A stretch of 64,000 nucleotides of DNA from a virus (IMGVR_UViG_3300032233_002382:243778-307777), one strand, 5' to 3'. Numbered from the stretch's first letter, positions 14,057 to 64,000 are shown. Notes: generated by a model not told the origin, from the sequence alone. Made by a program: numbers and translations.

Positions 14057-14722
14057 ATGTATCGTGTAGGCATGAGTGTAGATAAGATAAGGATAGCCAA
14101 CCGGATTGCTAAAGGGAAAACATCAGAATTGGTTGGTCAGGACCCAGACGTAAATCCGGACCTTAAAAATCCAGAGTCAGTTTCTGGACATAACGATCTA
14201 ATAGATATCCCCAACGTACGTCAATATAATGATTTTACGTGCGGATCTGCATGCTTGCTGGCGATACTGGCTTATTATGGGAAATATGACGGTAGAGAAG
14301 ACGACCTCGCAAGCGAATTACGAACAAATCCGATAAACGGAACAAATGCCGATGACATAGTTAAAATCGCAAGAAAGTTCGGCCTAAACGCAGAGCGTAG
14401 AGAAAACGCGGACCTTAAAATAATCGAATCATCACTTAGACGAAAAACGCCGATTATAGTGAACTTTCAAGCCTGGAGCGATTCTGGATCAGACTACAGG
14501 CACAGCAACGAGGATGGTCACTACGCCATAGTAACAGGCATGGACGACGAAAACCTGTATTTTCGAGATCCATCCATGAACGGAAAGATCGGCCGATTAT
14601 CAAAAGCAGATTTTATGCAAAGATGGCATGACGAAGACGCACAATCTGACGTGGAACGGATGTGCATACTATTTCACGATAATATGATCCCTAGAATCGA
14701 AGAGATAGAGTATATAGGATAA
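14057..14722 (+). CDS. C39-like cysteine peptidase with N-terminal RIANRIA motif
   Basis: Q...FTCGSACL (Cys), GHYAIVTG (His) and FRDP (Asp). Confidence 0.85.
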   Translation: MYRVGMSVDKIRIANRIAKGKTSELVGQDPDVNPDLKNPESVSGHNDLIDIPNVRQYNDFTCGSACLLAILAYYGKYDGREDDLASELRTNPINGTNADDIVKIARKFGLNAERRENADLKIIESSLRRKTPIIVNFQAWSDSGSDYRHSNEDGHYAIVTGMDDENLYFRDPSMNGKIGRLSKADFMQRWHDEDAQSDVERMCILFHDNMIPRIEEIEYIG

Positions 14723-39409: not shown

Positions 39410-40231
39410 TTATTCCATCGTCAAAATCTGCGCGTCGCCGCGATCTCTAAACTGCGGAAGTGAGACTTCGTGGAGGATGTTGAAGTGTTTGTCACTAATA
39501 GCGAAGAACACGGTATAATATTTTCCATATCTTGAGTTATTTACTGTCACTCTCAAAGCCTCGTCTGCAGACTCGAGTTCTTTCTTAGCAATTTCGAGTT
39601 CTTCTGCTGACGATTTTACATCGTCATTAGCTATACCATGCTTAATAAGCATGGCTACACGCGTGTGTTTTTCCCTTATCTCTTCCTTAATAAGTTCTTT
39701 TATCTTATTCAAAGCGCGAAAGAATCGATGTCTAACCCGACCCTGGGTCAAACCCATTTGTTTTGCTATTTCTGACTGGCAGGTAGTTTCGTACATTCTC
39801 CAAAGAATTTCTCGATCCTGATCTGAGAACTTCGGACCTAACTCGACATCAAAATCGCGCTTCTCTAATTCCGGAATCGTTCTGAGAAACTGGATGCGTT
39901 TAATTCCTCGATGAAGACGATAAGAAACGGCCGCTTGAGTGATTCTAAAAAGCTTTGCGATTTGCTCTTGCTTCATACGGTCTTTATAATATAGCTTTAT
40001 AAGATCAGACTCACGGGCTGGAATTCGCGCTAAAAACTTTTCTATCGAATTATAATCTAGTGCCGCAGTGCCACTAACAATAGTATCGGACAAATCTTCT
40101 TCGCTATCTGGAGCGAACGACTTCTCGATAAAATCGTCAATATTATCTCCATAGAGACTATTGCCCAATTGATACCGGTTGCTGAATCGACCAGAAATCG
40201 ACGACGGGTCTTGAATAAGAATATGTGACAT
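39410..40231 (-). CDS. transcription factor with two tandem sigma-70 region-4-like HTH domains
   Basis: IPARESDLIKLYY...KQEQIAKLF.ITQAAVSYRLHRG and FSDQDREILW...QSEIAKQMGLTQGRVRHRFFRA. Confidence 0.7.
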   Translation of the reverse strand: MSHILIQDPSSISGRFSNRYQLGNSLYGDNIDDFIEKSFAPDSEEDLSDTIVSGTAALDYNSIEKFLARIPARESDLIKLYYKDRMKQEQIAKLFRITQAAVSYRLHRGIKRIQFLRTIPELEKRDFDVELGPKFSDQDREILWRMYETTCQSEIAKQMGLTQGRVRHRFFRALNKIKELIKEEIREKHTRVAMLIKHGIANDDVKSSAEELEIAKKELESADEALRVTVNNSRYGKYYTVFFAISDKHFNILHEVSLPQFRDRGDAQILTME

Positions 40232-59051: not shown

Positions 59052-59237
59052 TCATAGACTAAACGATCCACCTACAGGTACTGACCAGGTGTGCTTGCAT
59101 TTCACACATTGCATTGTGGTAGTGTGTGATCTTGGTGGACTCACAATAACCGCTTGAAGACTATCACAAGACTGCCCTTTAGTCACCATGTCCGACCCAC
59201 GCTTGCATTTCGCAAATACTTCTTTCTTATCAGCCAT
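59052..59237 (-). CDS. small zinc-ribbon protein
   Basis: CKRG...CDS...CVKC.HTW. Confidence 0.6.
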   Translation of the reverse strand: MADKKEVFAKCKRGSDMVTKGQSCDSLQAVIVSPPRSHTTTMQCVKCKHTWSVPVGGSFSL

Positions 59238-59574
59238 TTATATTCTCCTCACTAAACAATACCGAAAGCGCGACACGAGCAGCTTCAAACACACCTTGAG
59301 GATAAGTCGAAAATAAAGGCTGCGAACCTAAACGTTCTACTGCTAATAACATCTTCGAATAGTCAGAATAAGGTATTTTCCGTAAGACAAGACCATTCGA
59401 CAAGCTTATTGTAACCATATCTAGCCCTGAATATGAAAGATCGGGCTGAACCTTGACCTTAGAAAACTTCATGGCTACTACAATTGAAGCATATGTATCA
59501 ATGGCACGATCATAAGTCAAAGGTCTCGTGAATTGACCTTTATACTTAAAATCACGACTAGTCCCATCCATCAC
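59230..59574 (-). CDS. hypothetical protein
   Basis: 114-aa coupled ORF. Confidence 0.5.
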   Translation of the reverse strand: MMDGTSRDFKYKGQFTRPLTYDRAIDTYASIVVAMKFSKVKVQPDLSYSGLDMVTISLSNGLVLRKIPYSDYSKMLLAVERLGSQPLFSTYPQGVFEAARVALSVLFSEENING

Positions 59575-62345
59575 ATCAGCCTTAGTGCGATTTTATATAT
59601 ATTGAACCAAGGCCTACATGTCGCAGTACTTCGTACATAAGCGGCGACGCGCTTGAATTTACCATCCACTATTTCGAATCCGACAGCTTTTGCTAAGCCT
59701 AACTTTTGTTCCTGGGTGAGCGAGGTCGGCAGTGGCGGTATTTTTGCGATTTCAGCTCTACTGAGTCCATCCGATTTCATTAGAAGCGCTATCTGTTCAT
59801 CCCAGTAATCCTCGAGCGCTTCTTGCAAAGCCTCCAATTCAGATAATTCCTCATCAGAGTAACCACGAGGCTTAAGTGTAAGGAATCCGTCACGCTGAAG
59901 CCTAGATAAAGCACGGATATCATCATAGGCATCTGCAGTTTGCGGGTTATACTGGGCAGTACTCTGGTCTTTAACAGCTTTAAAGGCTCTTGTATTGAGT
60001 GCCTTTAATTGTTCCTTGCTTATGGGTTCCGGCCACGGCTTGATGGAACGAACCACATCTCTGGTTAAAGAGAAGGGAGCTCGAACCAGCTTATCCGAAA
60101 GGACATCGAAGTACTCATCCAGAACATCGCCTGAAGCCGCCGTTTGCAGATAGTTCGATTCGAACAATTTAACTAACATGGCGGCATCAATTAATTCTTG
60201 AGGCAGAATCTCCGCCAATTCGGCATCACTAAGGTATGAAGCCTTTATATCATCTATGTTCCAGTCGTCAGGGTCTTGTTTAGCAAGATTCTCGTAGTAC
60301 GAACGTTGAGCAGGAGTTAAGTCACCCCAAGCCTTGCCAACCGGAGATAACGCCTTACCGGTCTCATCCTTAACTTTCTCGAATTCGAGTTTTTCAGCAG
60401 GAGTAAGATCGCGGAATTTCTGTATATAGAGATATCTGTTGGCTTTAAGCTGCTTCTTGTGTTTTGCCGGGAGCTGGAAATAAGTGTAAATGTCCTTCGG
60501 GAACTCTCTAGTCAAGACGGGAAGCAATTCGGGAAATTTAGATTGGATTTCAGGATCTTTCACATAAGCACTGAGGCTAGTAAGATCTTCTCGGCTAGCA
60601 GTACCGTCAATGACCTTGGCAAGCACCTTTGATAGACGATCCGCCTTAGAAGAATCTACGCCACGATCCTCACCTAAAGCCTCAAATAGTATTTCTACGG
60701 CTTCCATGAACTGCTTGAAAGGCTCTGAATTCTTTATACGATTAAGCGATCGTTTATTCTTTTGGAATTCCGTAGTAAAACTATCCGCTTTTTCTTCTTC
60801 CTTTACACGAGTTTTAGACTGCTGACTGACGTCAGCTTGGTATATATCCTTTAGAAGATCAATTTCTTGATCCGTGAAAGCCGACTCGATCGCCTTTTGC
60901 AGTTTCTTGCGCATATCACCAAGACGACCCGGCCGATCAACGACCGCCTGAGCCGCCATTGACAACTCGATCCCATCCGGATCATTCCAGTTCGCCATTA
61001 CAAGTGGGGTCTGACCTTGAGCCACAGTGGAAGGATCGTTTGAATATAATTTTATGAAATTCTTAAACTCGTCTATATTACTGAAATTATATCCGAACTT
61101 TTCTCCGGCCTTAACCATCATAAGGTCTAAGAAGTCCTGATTCTTTTTCATATTTCGATCGATACGAGTCGCAACGTCGCCTTTATCGTCTTCAAAAATC
61201 TGTTCCCATAATAATTTATAAGCCAAACCTAAATCGGCAATGTTCTTATCGATCTTAGGTAACGCGCTCTTGAATGCTTCTTGTACACGCTTAGAGGCAA
61301 AGGTATCGGATTCAAGAGTTTTTAAGAAATCTTCATCAACCTCAGCCGAAGGAATACGACTCTCACCGGGCTCAAGAACGTCACCACCCTCGTCACGACG
61401 CTCAAAGATAGACATCGGCTCGACGCGCCGCATAGTGATAGGTGACCGGCTAGGCTCGATGTTCTCAAATGTAATCGGTCGACCCTCTTCATCGGTCTTA
61501 TTACTGTCCGACAGTTTCTTTTCAATATACTCAACACGTTCTTGATCAGATGGCTTCCATTCTGGTGTACCCTTCTTGCCCTTTAAATAGGCAAGTTCTC
61601 CAACGAGATCATTTACTTTCTGCTTGTTCTTTCGCAAAGAATCGCGAGCCGCGTTCATCAAGAATTTCTTAAACACGTTTAAAGCTACATCAGGACTTTT
61701 GGCCGAAGGCATTTCAGGATTTTCAGTAAATGACCAGCCATTTTCGCGGAATCTCTTTAATAGGTAGACTATTTTATCCTGGATGATATCGCGAGCAGCA
61801 TCATCACTACTTTTAAGAACGCGACTTACTAAAGCGATACATTCACGACCAATTTGGGTTGCAGATTTCGATAGGGAAACGCCAGGGAAACTGAAATTTA
61901 ACAAAGCAATGATCGACTGACCTACGAAATTGGCGTTCACCTTATCGATCGACTCTAGCTTGCTTGAATTTTGCTCGATCGCCTTTATTTCTTTATCATT
62001 TAAAGATTCGACTTCAGGTGCTTCTTCTTTCTTTTTCTTCTTGCGACCAGTAGAGGCTTCTTCTTTTTCCTTAACGACTTTCTTCTTAACTTCTGGCGCA
62101 ACATCTACTGTGAGAATAGGCTCAGTCGGAACATCGGCGTTATTGGCCAGCAGGAATGCTTTGATCGCATCCATACGCTTAACTTCAGCTGGCGATATAC
62201 TACCCTGCTGCTGCTTTCCTAAAAGTATGGCATATTGCTTTGCAAAATTATCAGTAGCAGAAGCCGTCCTTAAACGGCCAAACGCTACGAGAAATCGACG
62301 GGTATCGGCAGATAATATATGCATGGCCATCCTCAGATGGAACAT
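59571..62345 (-). CDS. large protein with an ECF sigma region-2-like segment and (K/R)xAS / KIALRL motifs
   Basis: LVSRVLKSSDDAARDIIQDKIVYLL...F...FKKFLMNAARDSLRKNKQK. Confidence 0.55.
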   Translation of the reverse strand: MFHLRMAMHILSADTRRFLVAFGRLRTASATDNFAKQYAILLGKQQQGSISPAEVKRMDAIKAFLLANNADVPTEPILTVDVAPEVKKKVVKEKEEASTGRKKKKKEEAPEVESLNDKEIKAIEQNSSKLESIDKVNANFVGQSIIALLNFSFPGVSLSKSATQIGRECIALVSRVLKSSDDAARDIIQDKIVYLLKRFRENGWSFTENPEMPSAKSPDVALNVFKKFLMNAARDSLRKNKQKVNDLVGELAYLKGKKGTPEWKPSDQERVEYIEKKLSDSNKTDEEGRPITFENIEPSRSPITMRRVEPMSIFERRDEGGDVLEPGESRIPSAEVDEDFLKTLESDTFASKRVQEAFKSALPKIDKNIADLGLAYKLLWEQIFEDDKGDVATRIDRNMKKNQDFLDLMMVKAGEKFGYNFSNIDEFKNFIKLYSNDPSTVAQGQTPLVMANWNDPDGIELSMAAQAVVDRPGRLGDMRKKLQKAIESAFTDQEIDLLKDIYQADVSQQSKTRVKEEEKADSFTTEFQKNKRSLNRIKNSEPFKQFMEAVEILFEALGEDRGVDSSKADRLSKVLAKVIDGTASREDLTSLSAYVKDPEIQSKFPELLPVLTREFPKDIYTYFQLPAKHKKQLKANRYLYIQKFRDLTPAEKLEFEKVKDETGKALSPVGKAWGDLTPAQRSYYENLAKQDPDDWNIDDIKASYLSDAELAEILPQELIDAAMLVKLFESNYLQTAASGDVLDEYFDVLSDKLVRAPFSLTRDVVRSIKPWPEPISKEQLKALNTRAFKAVKDQSTAQYNPQTADAYDDIRALSRLQRDGFLTLKPRGYSDEELSELEALQEALEDYWDEQIALLMKSDGLSRAEIAKIPPLPTSLTQEQKLGLAKAVGFEIVDGKFKRVAAYVRSTATCRPWFNIYKIALRLM

Positions 62346-62362: not shown

Positions 62363-63649
62363 CTATCCGGCTAGAGCCACTACCCTGAGTTTCGATAATG
62401 CTTCATTACGAATCTTATTCACTCTGTTAACAGACATATCCAAAGAAGCAGCTATGGTCTTGATAGAAGTCTCTTCAAGATCGGCTTTTTGGATGATACT
62501 AGCTTCTACAGGAGTAAGGCAGGCAAGCTTAATTATGTTATATAAATCGTTTCGAGTGTTGACCGAAGTAATCTCCGAATCATCATTCACTGAAACATCC
62601 GATTCTGTTTCAGTAGTATCTGATCGAGATGCAGCACTGAACACCGATACAGTACCATCATCTGAGTGCCCGCTAGCCTCATCCCTTGCGTCATCGGTAC
62701 GAGACATACTCTTAAAATGATTAATCACATCATTATCTATGATCATGTTTGCATACTTCAGAAGACCCGCATCAATAGTAGCTTCTTTGGGGTTGCGAAA
62801 GATATACCGAGGCAAAGCAAACACTTTATTACTATTATTCCAATTTCGCAGAAACGGAGTAAGTTGAGAGTCATTCCACCTGAGCTTTAGTATCGACTTC
62901 ATCACAGCCGGATCTGACCATCGATGATTAAGAGATATATTTCGGAGCTTAAGGGATGCCTTGCCTTTTTCACACTCGTCACAAACCACGGTTGGCCGTT
63001 TATTATAATGAGCTACACAGTAGCCTCGGCTATAATGACGCTGAGAGCAACCCTCGATACCACACAAACCGCCTGAGTAAGGAATGGACGTTTGAACCGA
63101 AGTACATTCATGCTCGGTAAACTCGGAAGGCTTTAGTCGACCCTGACGATACAGTGACTCGAGAGTATTGAAGTCCTTGGCACTAAAGGTCACGATCCCT
63201 TTTTCGTCTCGCGATCCAAGACCCATCAACTTCAATACCTTAGCAGTATCAATCGTGTGATTTTGAACGCTATAAAAATAGCGCTCATAATCGAACTTTG
63301 CATAAGACAAAATATCCTTGATTGCCCAAAGCGAATCCGATGAAGTTCGCTTCCCGTGGATAGGACGAATCATGCTAAGGTTGGTAACAGGAACCCCTCC
63401 AAGCATCCTAGAGGCATCGTCCAGATTGACCAAATCGTCAGTCAAGTGCTTGAAAAACCAACGGGAAACGAAGTCCTTAGATAACAAACGCAACCTGACA
63501 CGCTGGACCGTATCTGGGATACGATCCTTATCACGCTTATAGTGTTTGCTTACTTTTCCATGGACCCAAACGTGCCATTGAGCCAAAAATTCGGAAGTCG
63601 AAGGAATAAACACAGAAACAAAGCTATCTAGAGACTGGTTACTCGTCAT
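62363..63649 (-). CDS. RNA polymerase sigma-70-family factor with an internal zinc-binding insertion
   Basis: Region-2-like D.VQRVRLRLL...F, CGIEGC...HYSRGYCVAHY insert, and region-4 LTPVEASII...TIAASLDMSVNRVNKIRNEALSKLR. Confidence 0.7.
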   Translation of the reverse strand: MTSNQSLDSFVSVFIPSTSEFLAQWHVWVHGKVSKHYKRDKDRIPDTVQRVRLRLLSKDFVSRWFFKHLTDDLVNLDDASRMLGGVPVTNLSMIRPIHGKRTSSDSLWAIKDILSYAKFDYERYFYSVQNHTIDTAKVLKLMGLGSRDEKGIVTFSAKDFNTLESLYRQGRLKPSEFTEHECTSVQTSIPYSGGLCGIEGCSQRHYSRGYCVAHYNKRPTVVCDECEKGKASLKLRNISLNHRWSDPAVMKSILKLRWNDSQLTPFLRNWNNSNKVFALPRYIFRNPKEATIDAGLLKYANMIIDNDVINHFKSMSRTDDARDEASGHSDDGTVSVFSAASRSDTTETESDVSVNDDSEITSVNTRNDLYNIIKLACLTPVEASIIQKADLEETSIKTIAASLDMSVNRVNKIRNEALSKLRVVALAG

Positions 63650-64000
63650 GTGATCTCCATGCGGCGAACACTTCGCCGACTTAACGGAGTTCCCGATTAG
63701 GGAATTTCCGATCTATTTATTATTATAGCATACTTGAGTCTGTCGAGTCAATATCTCTGACTTCTCCATCTTTTCAAGCATACTGGTTATTAGTTGAGCT
63801 CGCCTAAATCTAAAACGAGATGCGCGCCTGGACTTAAAACAAGACCCAGATAAGTACGTTGAAAGCCGCTCGTTTTCGGGATACTTCTGACACATTCTCC
63901 AGCTTTCGCGCATATATTCGAGACCTACCCTAAGGCACACCTTTTGGTCCCGCTCTAAATCTGACCCATCAAATCCCGTAGTTTTAGAAACAGCATATCC

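What the first reader, a model, noticed from the sequence alone, without database searches (positions are those of the whole stretch)
59571..62345. 924-aa sigma-like protein carrying virion-cargo motifs at both ends
An ECF region-2-like segment (A.DIIQD...L...F...FKKFLMNAARDSLRK) is followed by a region-3-like SIFE..DEGGD.LE. It is flanked by RTAS near the N-terminus and KRVAA...RSTAT...KIALRL at the C-terminus, the motifs seen in head-region proteins. Hypothesis: a packaged, protease-matured transcription factor injected with the DNA to redirect host RNAP to early (TG-TANNNT) promoters.
Basis: partly seen in the sequence, partly recalled or inferred. Interest (0 to 1): 0.7.

Follow-up and report, generated by a model that had tools for sequence, protein, structure and literature searches.

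The report
Divergent sigma-like factor of jumbo phage
This 924-residue protein of an uncultured 308-kb phage most likely contains a very divergent version of the part of a bacterial sigma factor that grips RNA polymerase, so the phage probably uses it to take over host transcription; there is no evidence that it is packed into the virus particle.

Summary
The ORF is real (window 59571-62345, minus strand). Its likely start is Met8, giving 917 aa.

It belongs to a small family (387-960 aa) found only on uncultured jumbo-phage contigs. In five phages the gene order is the same: a Sigma70_r4 protein, this gene, a small coupled ORF, clamp-loader genes, class II RNR.

No Pfam, PHROG or NCBIfam model reaches threshold. 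Evidence for a sigma2 domain in residues ~140-245:
- The model (pLDDT 80-90) has ECF sigma2 domains as its best structural matches, at modest Z (5-6.2).
- A controlled complex prediction docks it on the beta-prime clamp helices of RNA polymerase (0.75; best control 0.00), through the conserved D-x-x-Q-D helix.

The supposed sigma4/region-3 part is conserved but has no support as sigma4.

Terminal motifs: R-[IV]-A-[ST] strings are enriched in this phage, mostly at protein N-termini. P0001's RTAS, KRVAA and RSTAT are not significant or conserved. Only the C-terminal KIALRL is conserved; in homologues it matches the phage-wide RIAxRIA tag, which this scan had already described on other DNA of this genome.

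Packaging is unsupported: the operon sits in the replication block, behind the contig's best host-type sigma70 promoter.

Verdict: a probable early, divergent sigma-like RNA-polymerase-binding factor.

The parts
59571..62345 (-). ORF of P0001: 924 aa from the first ATG, stop codon included. The probable true start is Met8, at 62324 (917 aa).
62256..62300 (-). Residues 16-30: N-terminal hydrophobic helix conserved in the family (R-F-[IL]-L-A..L.A). It contains the non-conserved RTAS.
62013..62087 (-). Residues 87-111: Lys/Glu-rich low-complexity core of an insertion (residues ~31-135) that the short family members lack.
61611..61928 (-). Residues 140-245: sigma2-like helical domain, ECF-type topology, modelled at pLDDT 80-90.
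61749..61799 (-). Residues 183-199: sigma region 2.1/2.2-like helix with the D186-x-x-Q189-D190 signature. It is the predicted contact surface for the beta-prime clamp helices.
61434..61610 (-). Residues 246-304: two extra helices packed on the sigma2-like domain. Residues 273-281 lie in the predicted RNAP interface.
61350..61412 (-). Residues 312-332: acidic, Gly-rich loop (A-F-G.R.E-G-G...G-G-E.R.P) in a low-confidence stretch of the model (pLDDT 34-50).
61041..61334 (-). Residues 338-435: conserved helical domain (L-P...L-F-D-x-I-F-E-D..G..I..N-M). It looks sigma4-like by eye, but no test supports that.
60888..60935 (-). Residues 471-486: conserved helix R-P-G.L-G-D.R.K-L-L.
59646..61028 (-). 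Residues 440-900: variable, mostly helical C-terminal extension with L-T-P-x-E type helix caps. Its length differs widely between homologues. Residues 633-692 show weak local similarity to an HMG box.
59574..59612 (-). Residues 912-924: C-terminal helix, core KIALRL (59577-59594). It is a degenerate copy of the RIAxRIA terminal tag, which is much stronger in homologues.
62363..63649 (-). Upstream gene P0003 (428 aa): phage sigma factor with Sigma70_r4 and a Zn-ribbon-like insert. It directly precedes the family gene in four of the five related phages examined; in L003 an HNH endonuclease gene lies between them.
63722..63751 (-). Near-consensus sigma70-type promoter: TTGACT-N18-TATAAT with a TG extension, 73 nt upstream of the P0003 start.
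59230..59574 (-). Downstream gene P0004 (114 aa). Its start overlaps the P0001 stop. It is conserved at this position in all five phages; function unknown, candidate partner.

Best explanation
P0001 is a very divergent member of the sigma-70 superfamily, specific to one clade of uncultured jumbo phages.

Proposed mechanism:
- It is made early in infection. Host RNA polymerase transcribes a host-type promoter in front of the two-gene unit P0003-P0001.
- Its sigma2-like domain (residues ~140-245) binds the clamp helices of the host RNA polymerase beta-prime subunit. The contact runs through a conserved acidic helix (D186, Q189, D190), as sigma region 2.2 and T4 gp55 do.
- Bound there, it replaces or competes with the host sigma and redirects the polymerase to phage promoters. 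It may act alone on -10-only promoters, or together with the neighbouring sigma4-bearing P0003.
- The conserved acidic Gly-rich loop, the following helical domain, the long variable extension and the terminal helices modulate or tether this activity.

Shown in silico: the fold, the conservation, the predicted interface, the gene order and the promoter.
Inferred: actual RNAP binding, promoter specificity, timing, and every role proposed for the other parts.
For: Family: exhaustive HMMER found 3 homologues. Synteny and a profile search raised the family to 10 members on jumbo-phage contigs. The conserved core is residues 140-490.

Fold: in the AF2 model of residues 130-445, residues 1-170 of the model have pLDDT 80-92.
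- A Foldseek-independent scan of 48,161 PDB chains put ECF sigma2 domains at ranks 1-6, 8, 13-15 and 22 (SigK Z 6.2, rmsd 4.1, 81 aligned residues; AlgU 5.7; SigW 5.7; SigH 5.7; EcfG-type RpoE 5.6). These matches cover model residues 13-114, that is P0001 142-243.
- In the second look at Foldseek's candidates, the top six were all ECF sigma2, including sigmaE region 2 bound to -10 DNA.

Weak sequence-level signals:
- The protein-language-feature search of residues 120-345 scored 0.93-0.94, with 27 of the 100 nearest clusters in a Sigma70_r2-bearing set and one further Sigma70_r2 cluster.
- The only NCBIfam hits of family member P0008 are two ECF sigma models, over the matching region (E 0.018, far below cut-off).
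- hhalign against RpoE picks the region 2.1/2.2 register.

Complex prediction with E. coli beta-prime 240-345: score 0.75 (runs 0.76, 0.75, 0.74), best of 3 controls 0.00. That mark was reached by 58 of 80 solved complexes and 2 of 110 mismatched pairs. The runs agree in at least 90% of contacts and the partner's pLDDT is at least 86. The interface is beta-prime 263-322 against P0001 133-150, 180-200 and 273-281, and includes D186, Q189 and D190.

Context:
- Gene order is conserved in five phages.
- TTGACT-N18-TATAAT with a TG extension lies 73 nt upstream of P0003. It is the only such site in the 308-kb contig.
- The contig has no RNAP beta gene but several sigma genes, so the phage depends on host polymerase.
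- T4 gp55 is the precedent for a sigma2-only phage factor that binds the clamp helices through acidic residues (PMC7892883).
Against: - No Pfam, PHROG or NCBIfam sigma model reaches threshold for P0001. No Pfam sigma model hit any of the 10 family members even at E<=1.
- hhalign probability against RpoE is only 1%, though the RpoE profile had low diversity.
- Profile search of PDB sequences found no sigma.
- Foldseek found no significant match.
- The structural Z values of 5-6 are in the range where helical bundles can match by chance.
- No sigma4 domain could be shown, so the protein may be unable to act as a complete sigma.
- The complex pass used a stand-in host (E. coli). It may also reflect the model's memory of solved sigma-RNAP complexes: it shows likeness, not binding.
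- No expression data exist.
Confidence: 0.55

Rival explanations
1. One reading: the protein is a sigma factor that is loaded into the capsid through its terminal motifs, trimmed by the head protease and injected with the DNA to start early phage transcription.
For: - RIA-type peptides are enriched at protein termini in this phage. Some carriers lie among the head genes.
- The family's C-terminus is a conserved RIAxRIA-like helix.
- Earlier unchecked notes of this scan read that tag as a head-loading label.
- T4 shows that a short conserved targeting sequence can load diverse proteins into a head (PMC3012670).
- According to earlier notes, the phage has many ECF-like promoters before small, presumably early genes. 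Such promoters would need a phage sigma present from the start.
Against: - The tag's destination is unknown and untested.
- P0001's own N-terminus does not match the tag (-10.3 bits), and its C-terminus matches only weakly (2.4 bits).
- The gene is not in the structural module. It sits with clamp loader, RNR, ligase and helicase genes.
- It lies behind the best host-type promoter of the contig, which removes the need for delivery.
- Tag carriers are scattered over the whole genome, including arrays of small genes.
- No cultured relative with virion proteomics carries the family.
Confidence: 0.08
2. Sigma decoy. The sigma2-like domain binds the beta-prime clamp helices only to block the host sigma (host shut-off or sigma exchange), without recognising promoters itself. 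The true phage sigmas are P0003 and the other sigma genes.
For: - The predicted clamp-helix binding.
- No demonstrable sigma4.
- Four other sigma-type genes in the contig could supply promoter specificity.
- In P0001 the tryptophan that most homologues keep before the region-2.3-like helix is missing.
Against: - A protein of 387-960 aa with several further conserved blocks is large for a simple blocker.
- The helix equivalent to regions 2.3/2.4 and the loop before it are conserved across the family.
- Occupying the clamp helices would also exclude the phage's own sigmas.
Confidence: 0.15
3. Two-part sigma. P0001 supplies region 2 and the adjacent P0003 supplies region 4. This would resemble T4 gp55 plus gp33, or the B. 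subtilis SigO-RsoA pair (the latter from my own knowledge), perhaps coupled to replication through the clamp-loader genes next door.
For: - P0003 precedes the family gene in all five phages, directly in four of them.
- P0003's only confident sigma signal is region 4 plus the region 2.4 helix.
- P0001's only signal is region 2.
- Like gp55 with its clamp-binding motif, P0001 carries a conserved short peptide at the very C-terminus after a long variable linker (PMC7892883).
Against: - The whole region is syntenic in these related phages, so adjacency alone says little.
- P0003's N-terminus also looks region-2.1/2.2-like by eye, so it may be a complete sigma.
- No sliding-clamp gene was found in the contig, which is 72% complete.
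- The C-terminal peptide does not resemble known clamp-binding motifs.
- No P0001-P0003 complex was tested.
Confidence: 0.12
4. Not a transcription protein. The helical bundle resembles sigma2 by chance, and the protein has another role, for example a replication-module scaffold or a DNA-binding protein.
For: - All sequence-profile tests are negative or sub-threshold.
- Z values of 5-6 are common for helical bundles (notes).
- The gene sits among replication genes.
- There is a weak HMG-box-like similarity in the C-terminal half.
Against: - Sigma2 domains are not merely present among the structural hits; they dominate the top of two rankings.
- The conserved D-x-x-Q-[DE] helix falls exactly in the predicted clamp-helix interface, with controls at 0.00.
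- Independent weak signals from NCBIfam ECF models and language-model features point the same way.
Confidence: 0.15

Closest known systems
ECF (group 4) sigma factors, e.g. E. coli sigmaE, B. subtilis SigW, M. tuberculosis SigK/SigH/SigL
   Same: - Their sigma2 domains are the best structural matches of residues 142-243.
- The helix order is the same, and P0001 has a D-x-x-Q-[DE] signature in the helix equivalent to region 2.1/2.2.
- The predicted docking site on the beta-prime clamp helices is the same.
- An acidic linker follows the domain.
- ECFs with regulatory C-terminal extensions are known, and phage ECF-like sigmas are noted as too divergent for the standard classification (PMC7826278).
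   Different: - No HMM match at threshold.
- No demonstrable sigma4.
- The protein is 2-5 times longer, with extra helices on the sigma2 domain.
- It has an invariant Gly-rich acidic loop, a long variable helical extension and conserved terminal peptides.
Phage T4 gp55, the late sigma (with gp33 and the gp45 clamp)
   Same: - A phage-encoded, highly diverged sigma region-2-only factor.
- It binds the clamp helices through acidic residues of one helix.
- It carries a short functional peptide at a disordered C-terminus (PMC7892883).
- It works with a separate flap-binding partner.
   Different: - No sequence or PHROG relation to gp55.
- gp55 has 185 aa and is a middle gene product acting late; P0001 appears to be an early gene product.
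- No phage clamp gene was found.
- The C-terminal peptide differs from the T4 clamp-binding motif.
Capsid targeting sequence of T4 internal proteins (IPI-III, Alt)
   Same: A short conserved terminal peptide shared by otherwise unrelated phage proteins (PMC3012670). The RIAxRIA tag of this phage behaves similarly in its distribution.
   Different: - The T4 signal is N-terminal, and its cargo genes are expressed with the head proteins.
- Here the destination of the tag is unknown.
- P0001 carries only a weak C-terminal copy.
- P0001 lies in an early-type operon.
Two-subunit sigma SigO-RsoA of Bacillus subtilis (from my own knowledge; named in PMC7826278's text search)
   Same: Sigma functions are divided between two co-transcribed proteins.
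   Different: There is no homology, and no evidence here that P0001 and P0003 bind one polymerase together.

Membership tests
Sigma-70 superfamily / ECF sigma | Sigma2 domain fold | tested here: met
   The model of residues 130-300 has pLDDT 80-92. ECF sigma2 domains take ranks 1-6 of 48,161 chains (Z 5.6-6.2, 70-81 aligned residues, rmsd 2.6-4.1) and ranks 1-6 in the second look. Caveat: the Z values are modest for a helical bundle.
Sigma-70 superfamily / ECF sigma | Sequence match to Sigma70_r2 (PF04542) or TIGR02937 at the curated cut-off | tested here: not met
   No Pfam sigma hit for P0001 or any of the 10 family members, even at E<=1. No NCBIfam hit for P0001. P0008 hits two ECF models only at E 0.018, far below cut-off. 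hhalign against RpoE gives probability 1%.
Sigma-70 superfamily / ECF sigma | Sigma4 helix-turn-helix domain (binds the beta flap and reads the -35 element) | tested here: inconclusive
   The model of residues 334-432 (pLDDT 70) gave a best Z of 4.5 with no sigma4 or HTH chains, and Foldseek found nothing. hhalign against RpoE and against P0003 found nothing. The feature search stayed at background, 0.80. Only a visual resemblance remains.
Sigma-70 superfamily / ECF sigma | Binds the beta-prime clamp helices of core RNAP through region 2.2 | tested here: met
   In silico only. Score 0.75, best control 0.00 (the mark was reached by 58 of 80 solved complexes and 2 of 110 mismatched pairs). Contacts agree at 90% or more, and the partner's pLDDT is at least 86. 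The interface is beta-prime 263-322 with P0001 180-200. E. coli served as a stand-in, and the pass may come from memory of solved holoenzymes.
Sigma-70 superfamily / ECF sigma | Confers promoter-specific initiation and melts the -10 element | not testable with these tools
   This needs in vitro transcription.
T4 gp55-type late sigma | Homology to gp55 | tested here: not met
   No PHROG or Pfam hit. gp55 is not among the listed structural matches.
T4 gp55-type late sigma | C-terminal sliding-clamp-binding motif and a phage clamp as activator | tested here: inconclusive
   A conserved C-terminal peptide exists but is of another type. No beta-clamp or gp45-type gene was found in a contig that is 72% complete. 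Clamp-loader genes are adjacent.
Virion cargo with a terminal targeting peptide (T4 CTS-like) | Carries the phage's shared terminal tag | tested here: inconclusive
   N-terminus: -10.3 bits, no match. C-terminal KIALRL: 2.4 bits, ninth best C-terminus among the ~320 proteins scored. Homologues' C-termini: 7.5-15.7 bits.
Virion cargo with a terminal targeting peptide (T4 CTS-like) | Encoded and expressed with the structural (late) genes | tested here: not met
   The gene lies in the transcription/replication block, about 30 kb from the head genes. It is the second gene behind a near-consensus host-type promoter.
Virion cargo with a terminal targeting peptide (T4 CTS-like) | Present in virions and processed by the head protease | not testable with these tools
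   No cultured relative carries the family. There are no proteomic data.

The most novel reading that the evidence does not exclude
A sigma-family RNA-polymerase-binding factor that carries the phage's portable RIAxRIA address peptide. The tag would either load it into the capsid, so that it is delivered with the DNA (a virion-borne sigma, for which I know no precedent), or tether it to a still unknown hub that also collects dozens of other tagged phage proteins.
Probability: 0.1. Interest if true: 0.8.

Novelty: new variant of a known kind. Interest (0 to 1): 0.5.

Why it matters
Jumbo phages that lack their own RNA polymerase must reprogram the host enzyme, and how they do so is largely unknown outside the T4 group. 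This family is invisible to all standard annotation models. Even so, it appears to keep the one surface that sigma factors use to grip the polymerase, set in an unusually large protein with several further conserved elements.

If confirmed, three things would follow:
- It would add a new branch to the sigma superfamily.
- It would give a handle on the early transcription switch of a widespread freshwater phage clade.
- Through its conserved C-terminal peptide, it would connect the transcription apparatus to the unexplained terminal tag system of these phages.

Tried and rejected
**Searches that found nothing or nothing significant**
- Pfam, PHROG and NCBIfam on P0001, its pieces and all family members gave no sigma model at threshold.
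- tblastn of P0001 and P0010 against 50,697 phage records found no match.
- A megablast of the region found no match.
- A pattern scan of viral contigs with P0001 found no relative.
- A family profile search of the nearest TerL relatives, Tunturiibacter phage Tunturi_5 and uncultured phage LR745208.1, found no member.
- PDB sequence searches with P0001 and with the core profile found no sigma.
- Foldseek against PDB and BFVD found nothing significant.
- The ESM Atlas shape search gave one ECF cluster at a weak TM-score.

**Sigma4 reading of residues 334-432**
- A separate model plus two structure searches, two hhalign runs and a feature search all gave nothing.

**Other attempts**
- The RpoE seed search returned only close orthologues, so the sigma profile used for hhalign was of low diversity.
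- Tag statistics in the related phage G001 were unreliable: my crude ORF calls in 60% GC DNA misplace the starts.
- No RNA holder was listed among public sequencing runs.
- No sliding-clamp gene was found in the contig.
- The L003 record is not held for whole-genome search.

- Folding P0003 or a full-length short homologue.
- Complex predictions of P0001 with P0003 or P0004, or of the tag with head proteins.
Full report
**What is there**

The window is the last 64 kb of a 307,777-bp IMG/VR phage contig. An open frame of 924 codons lies at 59571..62345 on the minus strand, as stated.

The third ATG (Met8, at 62324) is the likely start, for three reasons:
- It has a GAGGA 5 nt upstream.
- The database copy has 917 aa.
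- With this start the N-terminus lines up with those of the homologues.

**Relatives and context**

The protein is close to an orphan:
- It has no Pfam or PHROG family.
- It finds nothing in 50,697 phage records.
- It finds only itself in the word-indexed search.

An exhaustive HMMER scan of 1.8 billion representatives found three homologues: P0005 at 1.5e-61, and P0006 and P0007 at about 1e-5. A related 240-kb phage contig was reached through the upstream gene. It carries a 387-aa member (P0008) at the same position. A profile search added five more.

Members range from 387 to 960 aa, and all lie on large phage contigs. The long forms, including P0001, differ from the short ones by insertions:
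- a Lys/Glu-rich stretch after the N-terminal motif;
- a segment after residue 405;
- a long helical extension.

In five phages the order is the same: a 426-510-aa protein with Sigma70_r4, the family gene, a 106-125-aa ORF whose start overlaps its stop, a ~60-aa ORF, clamp-loader delta-prime and delta genes, then class II ribonucleotide reductase.

The nearest TerL relatives in the phage collection are an uncultured 485-kb phage and the cultured Tunturiibacter phage Tunturi_5. Neither has a member.

**Is it sigma-like?**

Sequence models say no. No sigma HMM reaches threshold for any member. A profile search of PDB sequences finds no sigma. hhalign against an RpoE profile of low diversity finds the region 2.1/2.2 register, with P0001 183-199 aligned to the RpoE region 2 helix, but at 1% probability.

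Structure prediction points the other way. With the 10-member alignment, residues 130-300 model confidently as a helical domain (pLDDT 80-92). In an all-against-all comparison with 48,161 PDB representatives that does not depend on Foldseek, ECF sigma2 domains take ranks 1-6. They are SigK Z 6.2, an M. tuberculosis sigma 6.0, AlgU 5.7, SigW 5.7, SigH 5.7 and an EcfG-type RpoE 5.6, with 70-81 aligned residues. SigJ, the sigma-like domain of PhyR, SigL, BldN, SigG1, SigR, sigmaA domain 2, SigI6 and SigB follow. All of them cover P0001 142-243.

In a second look at Foldseek's candidates, the top six were again all ECF sigma2, including sigmaE region 2 bound to -10 DNA. The Z values are modest, and helical bundles can reach them by chance. 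What carries weight is that one family dominates the top of both lists.

Two weak, independent signals agree:
- Language-model features of residues 120-345 score 0.93-0.94. Of the 100 nearest clusters, 27 fall in a Sigma70_r2-bearing set.
- The only NCBIfam hits of P0008 are two ECF sigma models over the equivalent region, at E 0.018.

**Predicted contact with RNA polymerase**

I used the single complex job on the mechanistic core of the claim. P0001 130-304, with its family alignment, was folded against E. coli beta-prime 240-345.
- The score was 0.75 (three runs: 0.76, 0.75, 0.74). The best of three controls was 0.00.
- That mark was reached by 58 of 80 solved complexes and 2 of 110 mismatched pairs.
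- The runs agree in at least 90% of their contacts, and the partner's pLDDT is at least 86.
- The interface is the beta-prime clamp helices (263-322) against P0001 133-150, 180-200 and 273-281.
- It includes D186, Q189 and D190. D186 is at least 90% conserved and position 190 is always D or E.

This D-x-x-Q-[DE] helix corresponds to sigma region 2.2. T4 gp55 binds the same groove through three acidic residues of one helix (PMC7892883).

Caveats: E. coli is a stand-in for an unknown host. Sigma-polymerase complexes are well represented among solved structures, so the pass shows likeness to sigma2 rather than proven binding.

**The rest of the protein**

After two extra helices comes a stretch modelled at low confidence (pLDDT 34-50). 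It contains the family's most conserved element, an acidic Gly-rich loop at residues 312-332. By analogy it could lie in the polymerase cleft like a sigma linker, but that is inference only.

The next conserved block (338-435) looked to me like a sigma4 helix-turn-helix. A separate model of it (pLDDT 70) found no sigma4 or HTH structure. Two hhalign runs and a feature search were also blank. The protein is therefore best described as sigma2-bearing, with sigma4 unproven.

The C-terminal half is variable and helical. A local similarity to an HMG box (E 0.0017) falls partly in a P0001-specific insertion and has no Pfam support.

**The neighbour**

P0003 is much more conserved than P0001 (44-59% identity). 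It has Sigma70_r4 above the Pfam cut-off and a TIGR02937 match over residues 294-423. It also matches region 4 of FliA and other sigmas in PDB. Its N-terminus looks region-2-like by eye, but I could not test this.

Elsewhere the contig encodes a complete group-3-type sigma, an ECF-like protein and a protein with two region-4 domains. It has no RNA polymerase beta gene. The phage therefore relies on host polymerase and several specificity factors of its own.

**Timing**

A TTGACT-N18-TATAAT promoter with a TG extension (11 of 12 matches) lies 73 nt upstream of P0003. A scan of the whole contig found only eight sites with 11 or more of 12 matches (or 10 plus a TG extension). This is the only one with a TG extension. 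It is also one of only two that lie within 300 nt upstream of a gene on the right strand.

P0001 follows P0003 after 17 nt, with no terminator-like site between them. The simplest reading is that host holoenzyme transcribes both genes at the start of infection.

**The 'cargo' motifs**

R[IVT]A[ST] occurs 31 times against 9.2 in shuffles (z 6.9). The core pattern [RK][IVL]A.[RK][IVL] is about 15 times denser in the first 20 residues of proteins than in their interiors. It opens more than a dozen unrelated proteins scattered across the genome. Earlier follow-ups of this scan, on other windows of the same genome, had already described this RIAxRIA tag and guessed a head-loading role, which is untested.

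I built a weight matrix from the phage's own N-terminal tags and scored P0001 with it:
- The N-terminus, which contains RTAS, does not match (-10.3 bits).
- The KRVAA/RSTAT stretch is not significant.
- The terminal KIALRL is a weak match (2.4 bits).

The homologues' C-termini are strong matches (7.5-15.7 bits, for example P0010 and P0005), and they align with KIALRL. The family therefore carries a conserved C-terminal tag, which is degenerate in P0001. It also carries a distinct conserved N-terminal hydrophobic helix.

What the tag does remains open. Capsid loading, docking to a hub and auto-regulation of the sigma core are all possible; the last is how C-terminal extensions of some ECFs work (PMC7826278).

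For this protein, several points argue against delivery with the virion:
- the early-type promoter;
- the position among replication genes;
- the scatter of tag carriers through non-structural regions.

Nothing I could run tests packaging directly.

RTGTAnnnT is about 2.3-fold enriched in intergenic DNA. It sits 14-15 nt before the start codons of several genes in the replication block, which suggests leaderless transcripts. A sigma2-only factor reading a -10-only promoter would parallel T4 gp55, but no evidence assigns these sites to P0001.

**Verdict**

The packaging story is not supported.

I rate the finding as a new variant of a known kind: a probable early, highly divergent sigma-like RNA-polymerase-binding factor of a jumbo-phage clade, of moderate interest. 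The open questions are whether it confers promoter specificity and what its conserved terminal peptides do.

Noticed in passing
window 63722-63751 (minus strand): TTGACT-N18-TATAAT with a TG extension, 73 nt upstream of P0003. It is the only near-consensus, TG-extended sigma70-type promoter in the whole 308-kb contig, so it probably marks an immediate-early operon.
   Followed up: yes
window 62363-63649 (minus strand): P0003 is a well-conserved phage sigma with region 4 and a region-2.4-like helix at residues 293-315. A long insert with Cys/His zinc-ribbon-like motifs (~195-230) separates these from an N-terminal region-2.1/2.2-like helix. In one related phage (L003) an HNH endonuclease gene lies between it and the P0001 homologue.
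   Followed up: partly
window 59230-59574 (minus strand): A small ORF (114 aa) whose start overlaps the P0001 stop. It is conserved at this position in all five phages (23-33% identity) and has no family. ECF sigma genes are often followed by their regulator, so it is a candidate partner.
   Followed up: partly
window 39410-40231 (minus strand): A 273-aa protein with two tandem Sigma70_r4 domains and no region 2.
   Followed up: no
window 14057-14722 (plus strand): A C39-type cysteine peptidase that itself begins with the RIANRIA tag. C39 peptidases usually remove N-terminal leader peptides, so it is a candidate processing enzyme for the tag.
   Followed up: no
window 6019, 12233, 48228, 51737, 53115, 57310 (gene starts): RTGTAnnnT lies 14-15 nt before these start codons, which suggests leaderless transcripts from a -10-only promoter class in front of replication genes.
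   Followed up: partly
window ~60270-60449 (P0001 residues 633-692): Local similarity to an HMG-box protein (PDB 2mrc_A, E 0.0017). Part of it lies in a P0001-specific insertion, and there is no Pfam HMG hit.
   Followed up: partly
P0013 (family member, 773 aa): It appears to carry two tandem copies of the sigma2-like domain at its N-terminus. This was seen in the alignment only.
   Followed up: no
G000 genome-wide (e.g. 27935, 35354, 60879, 69735, 262511, 282438): A longer two-helix N-terminal module (…L-R-R-I-A-S-K-I-E-A-S-K-N-P-S-R-E-L-V…) recurs on at least six small, otherwise different proteins.
   Followed up: partly
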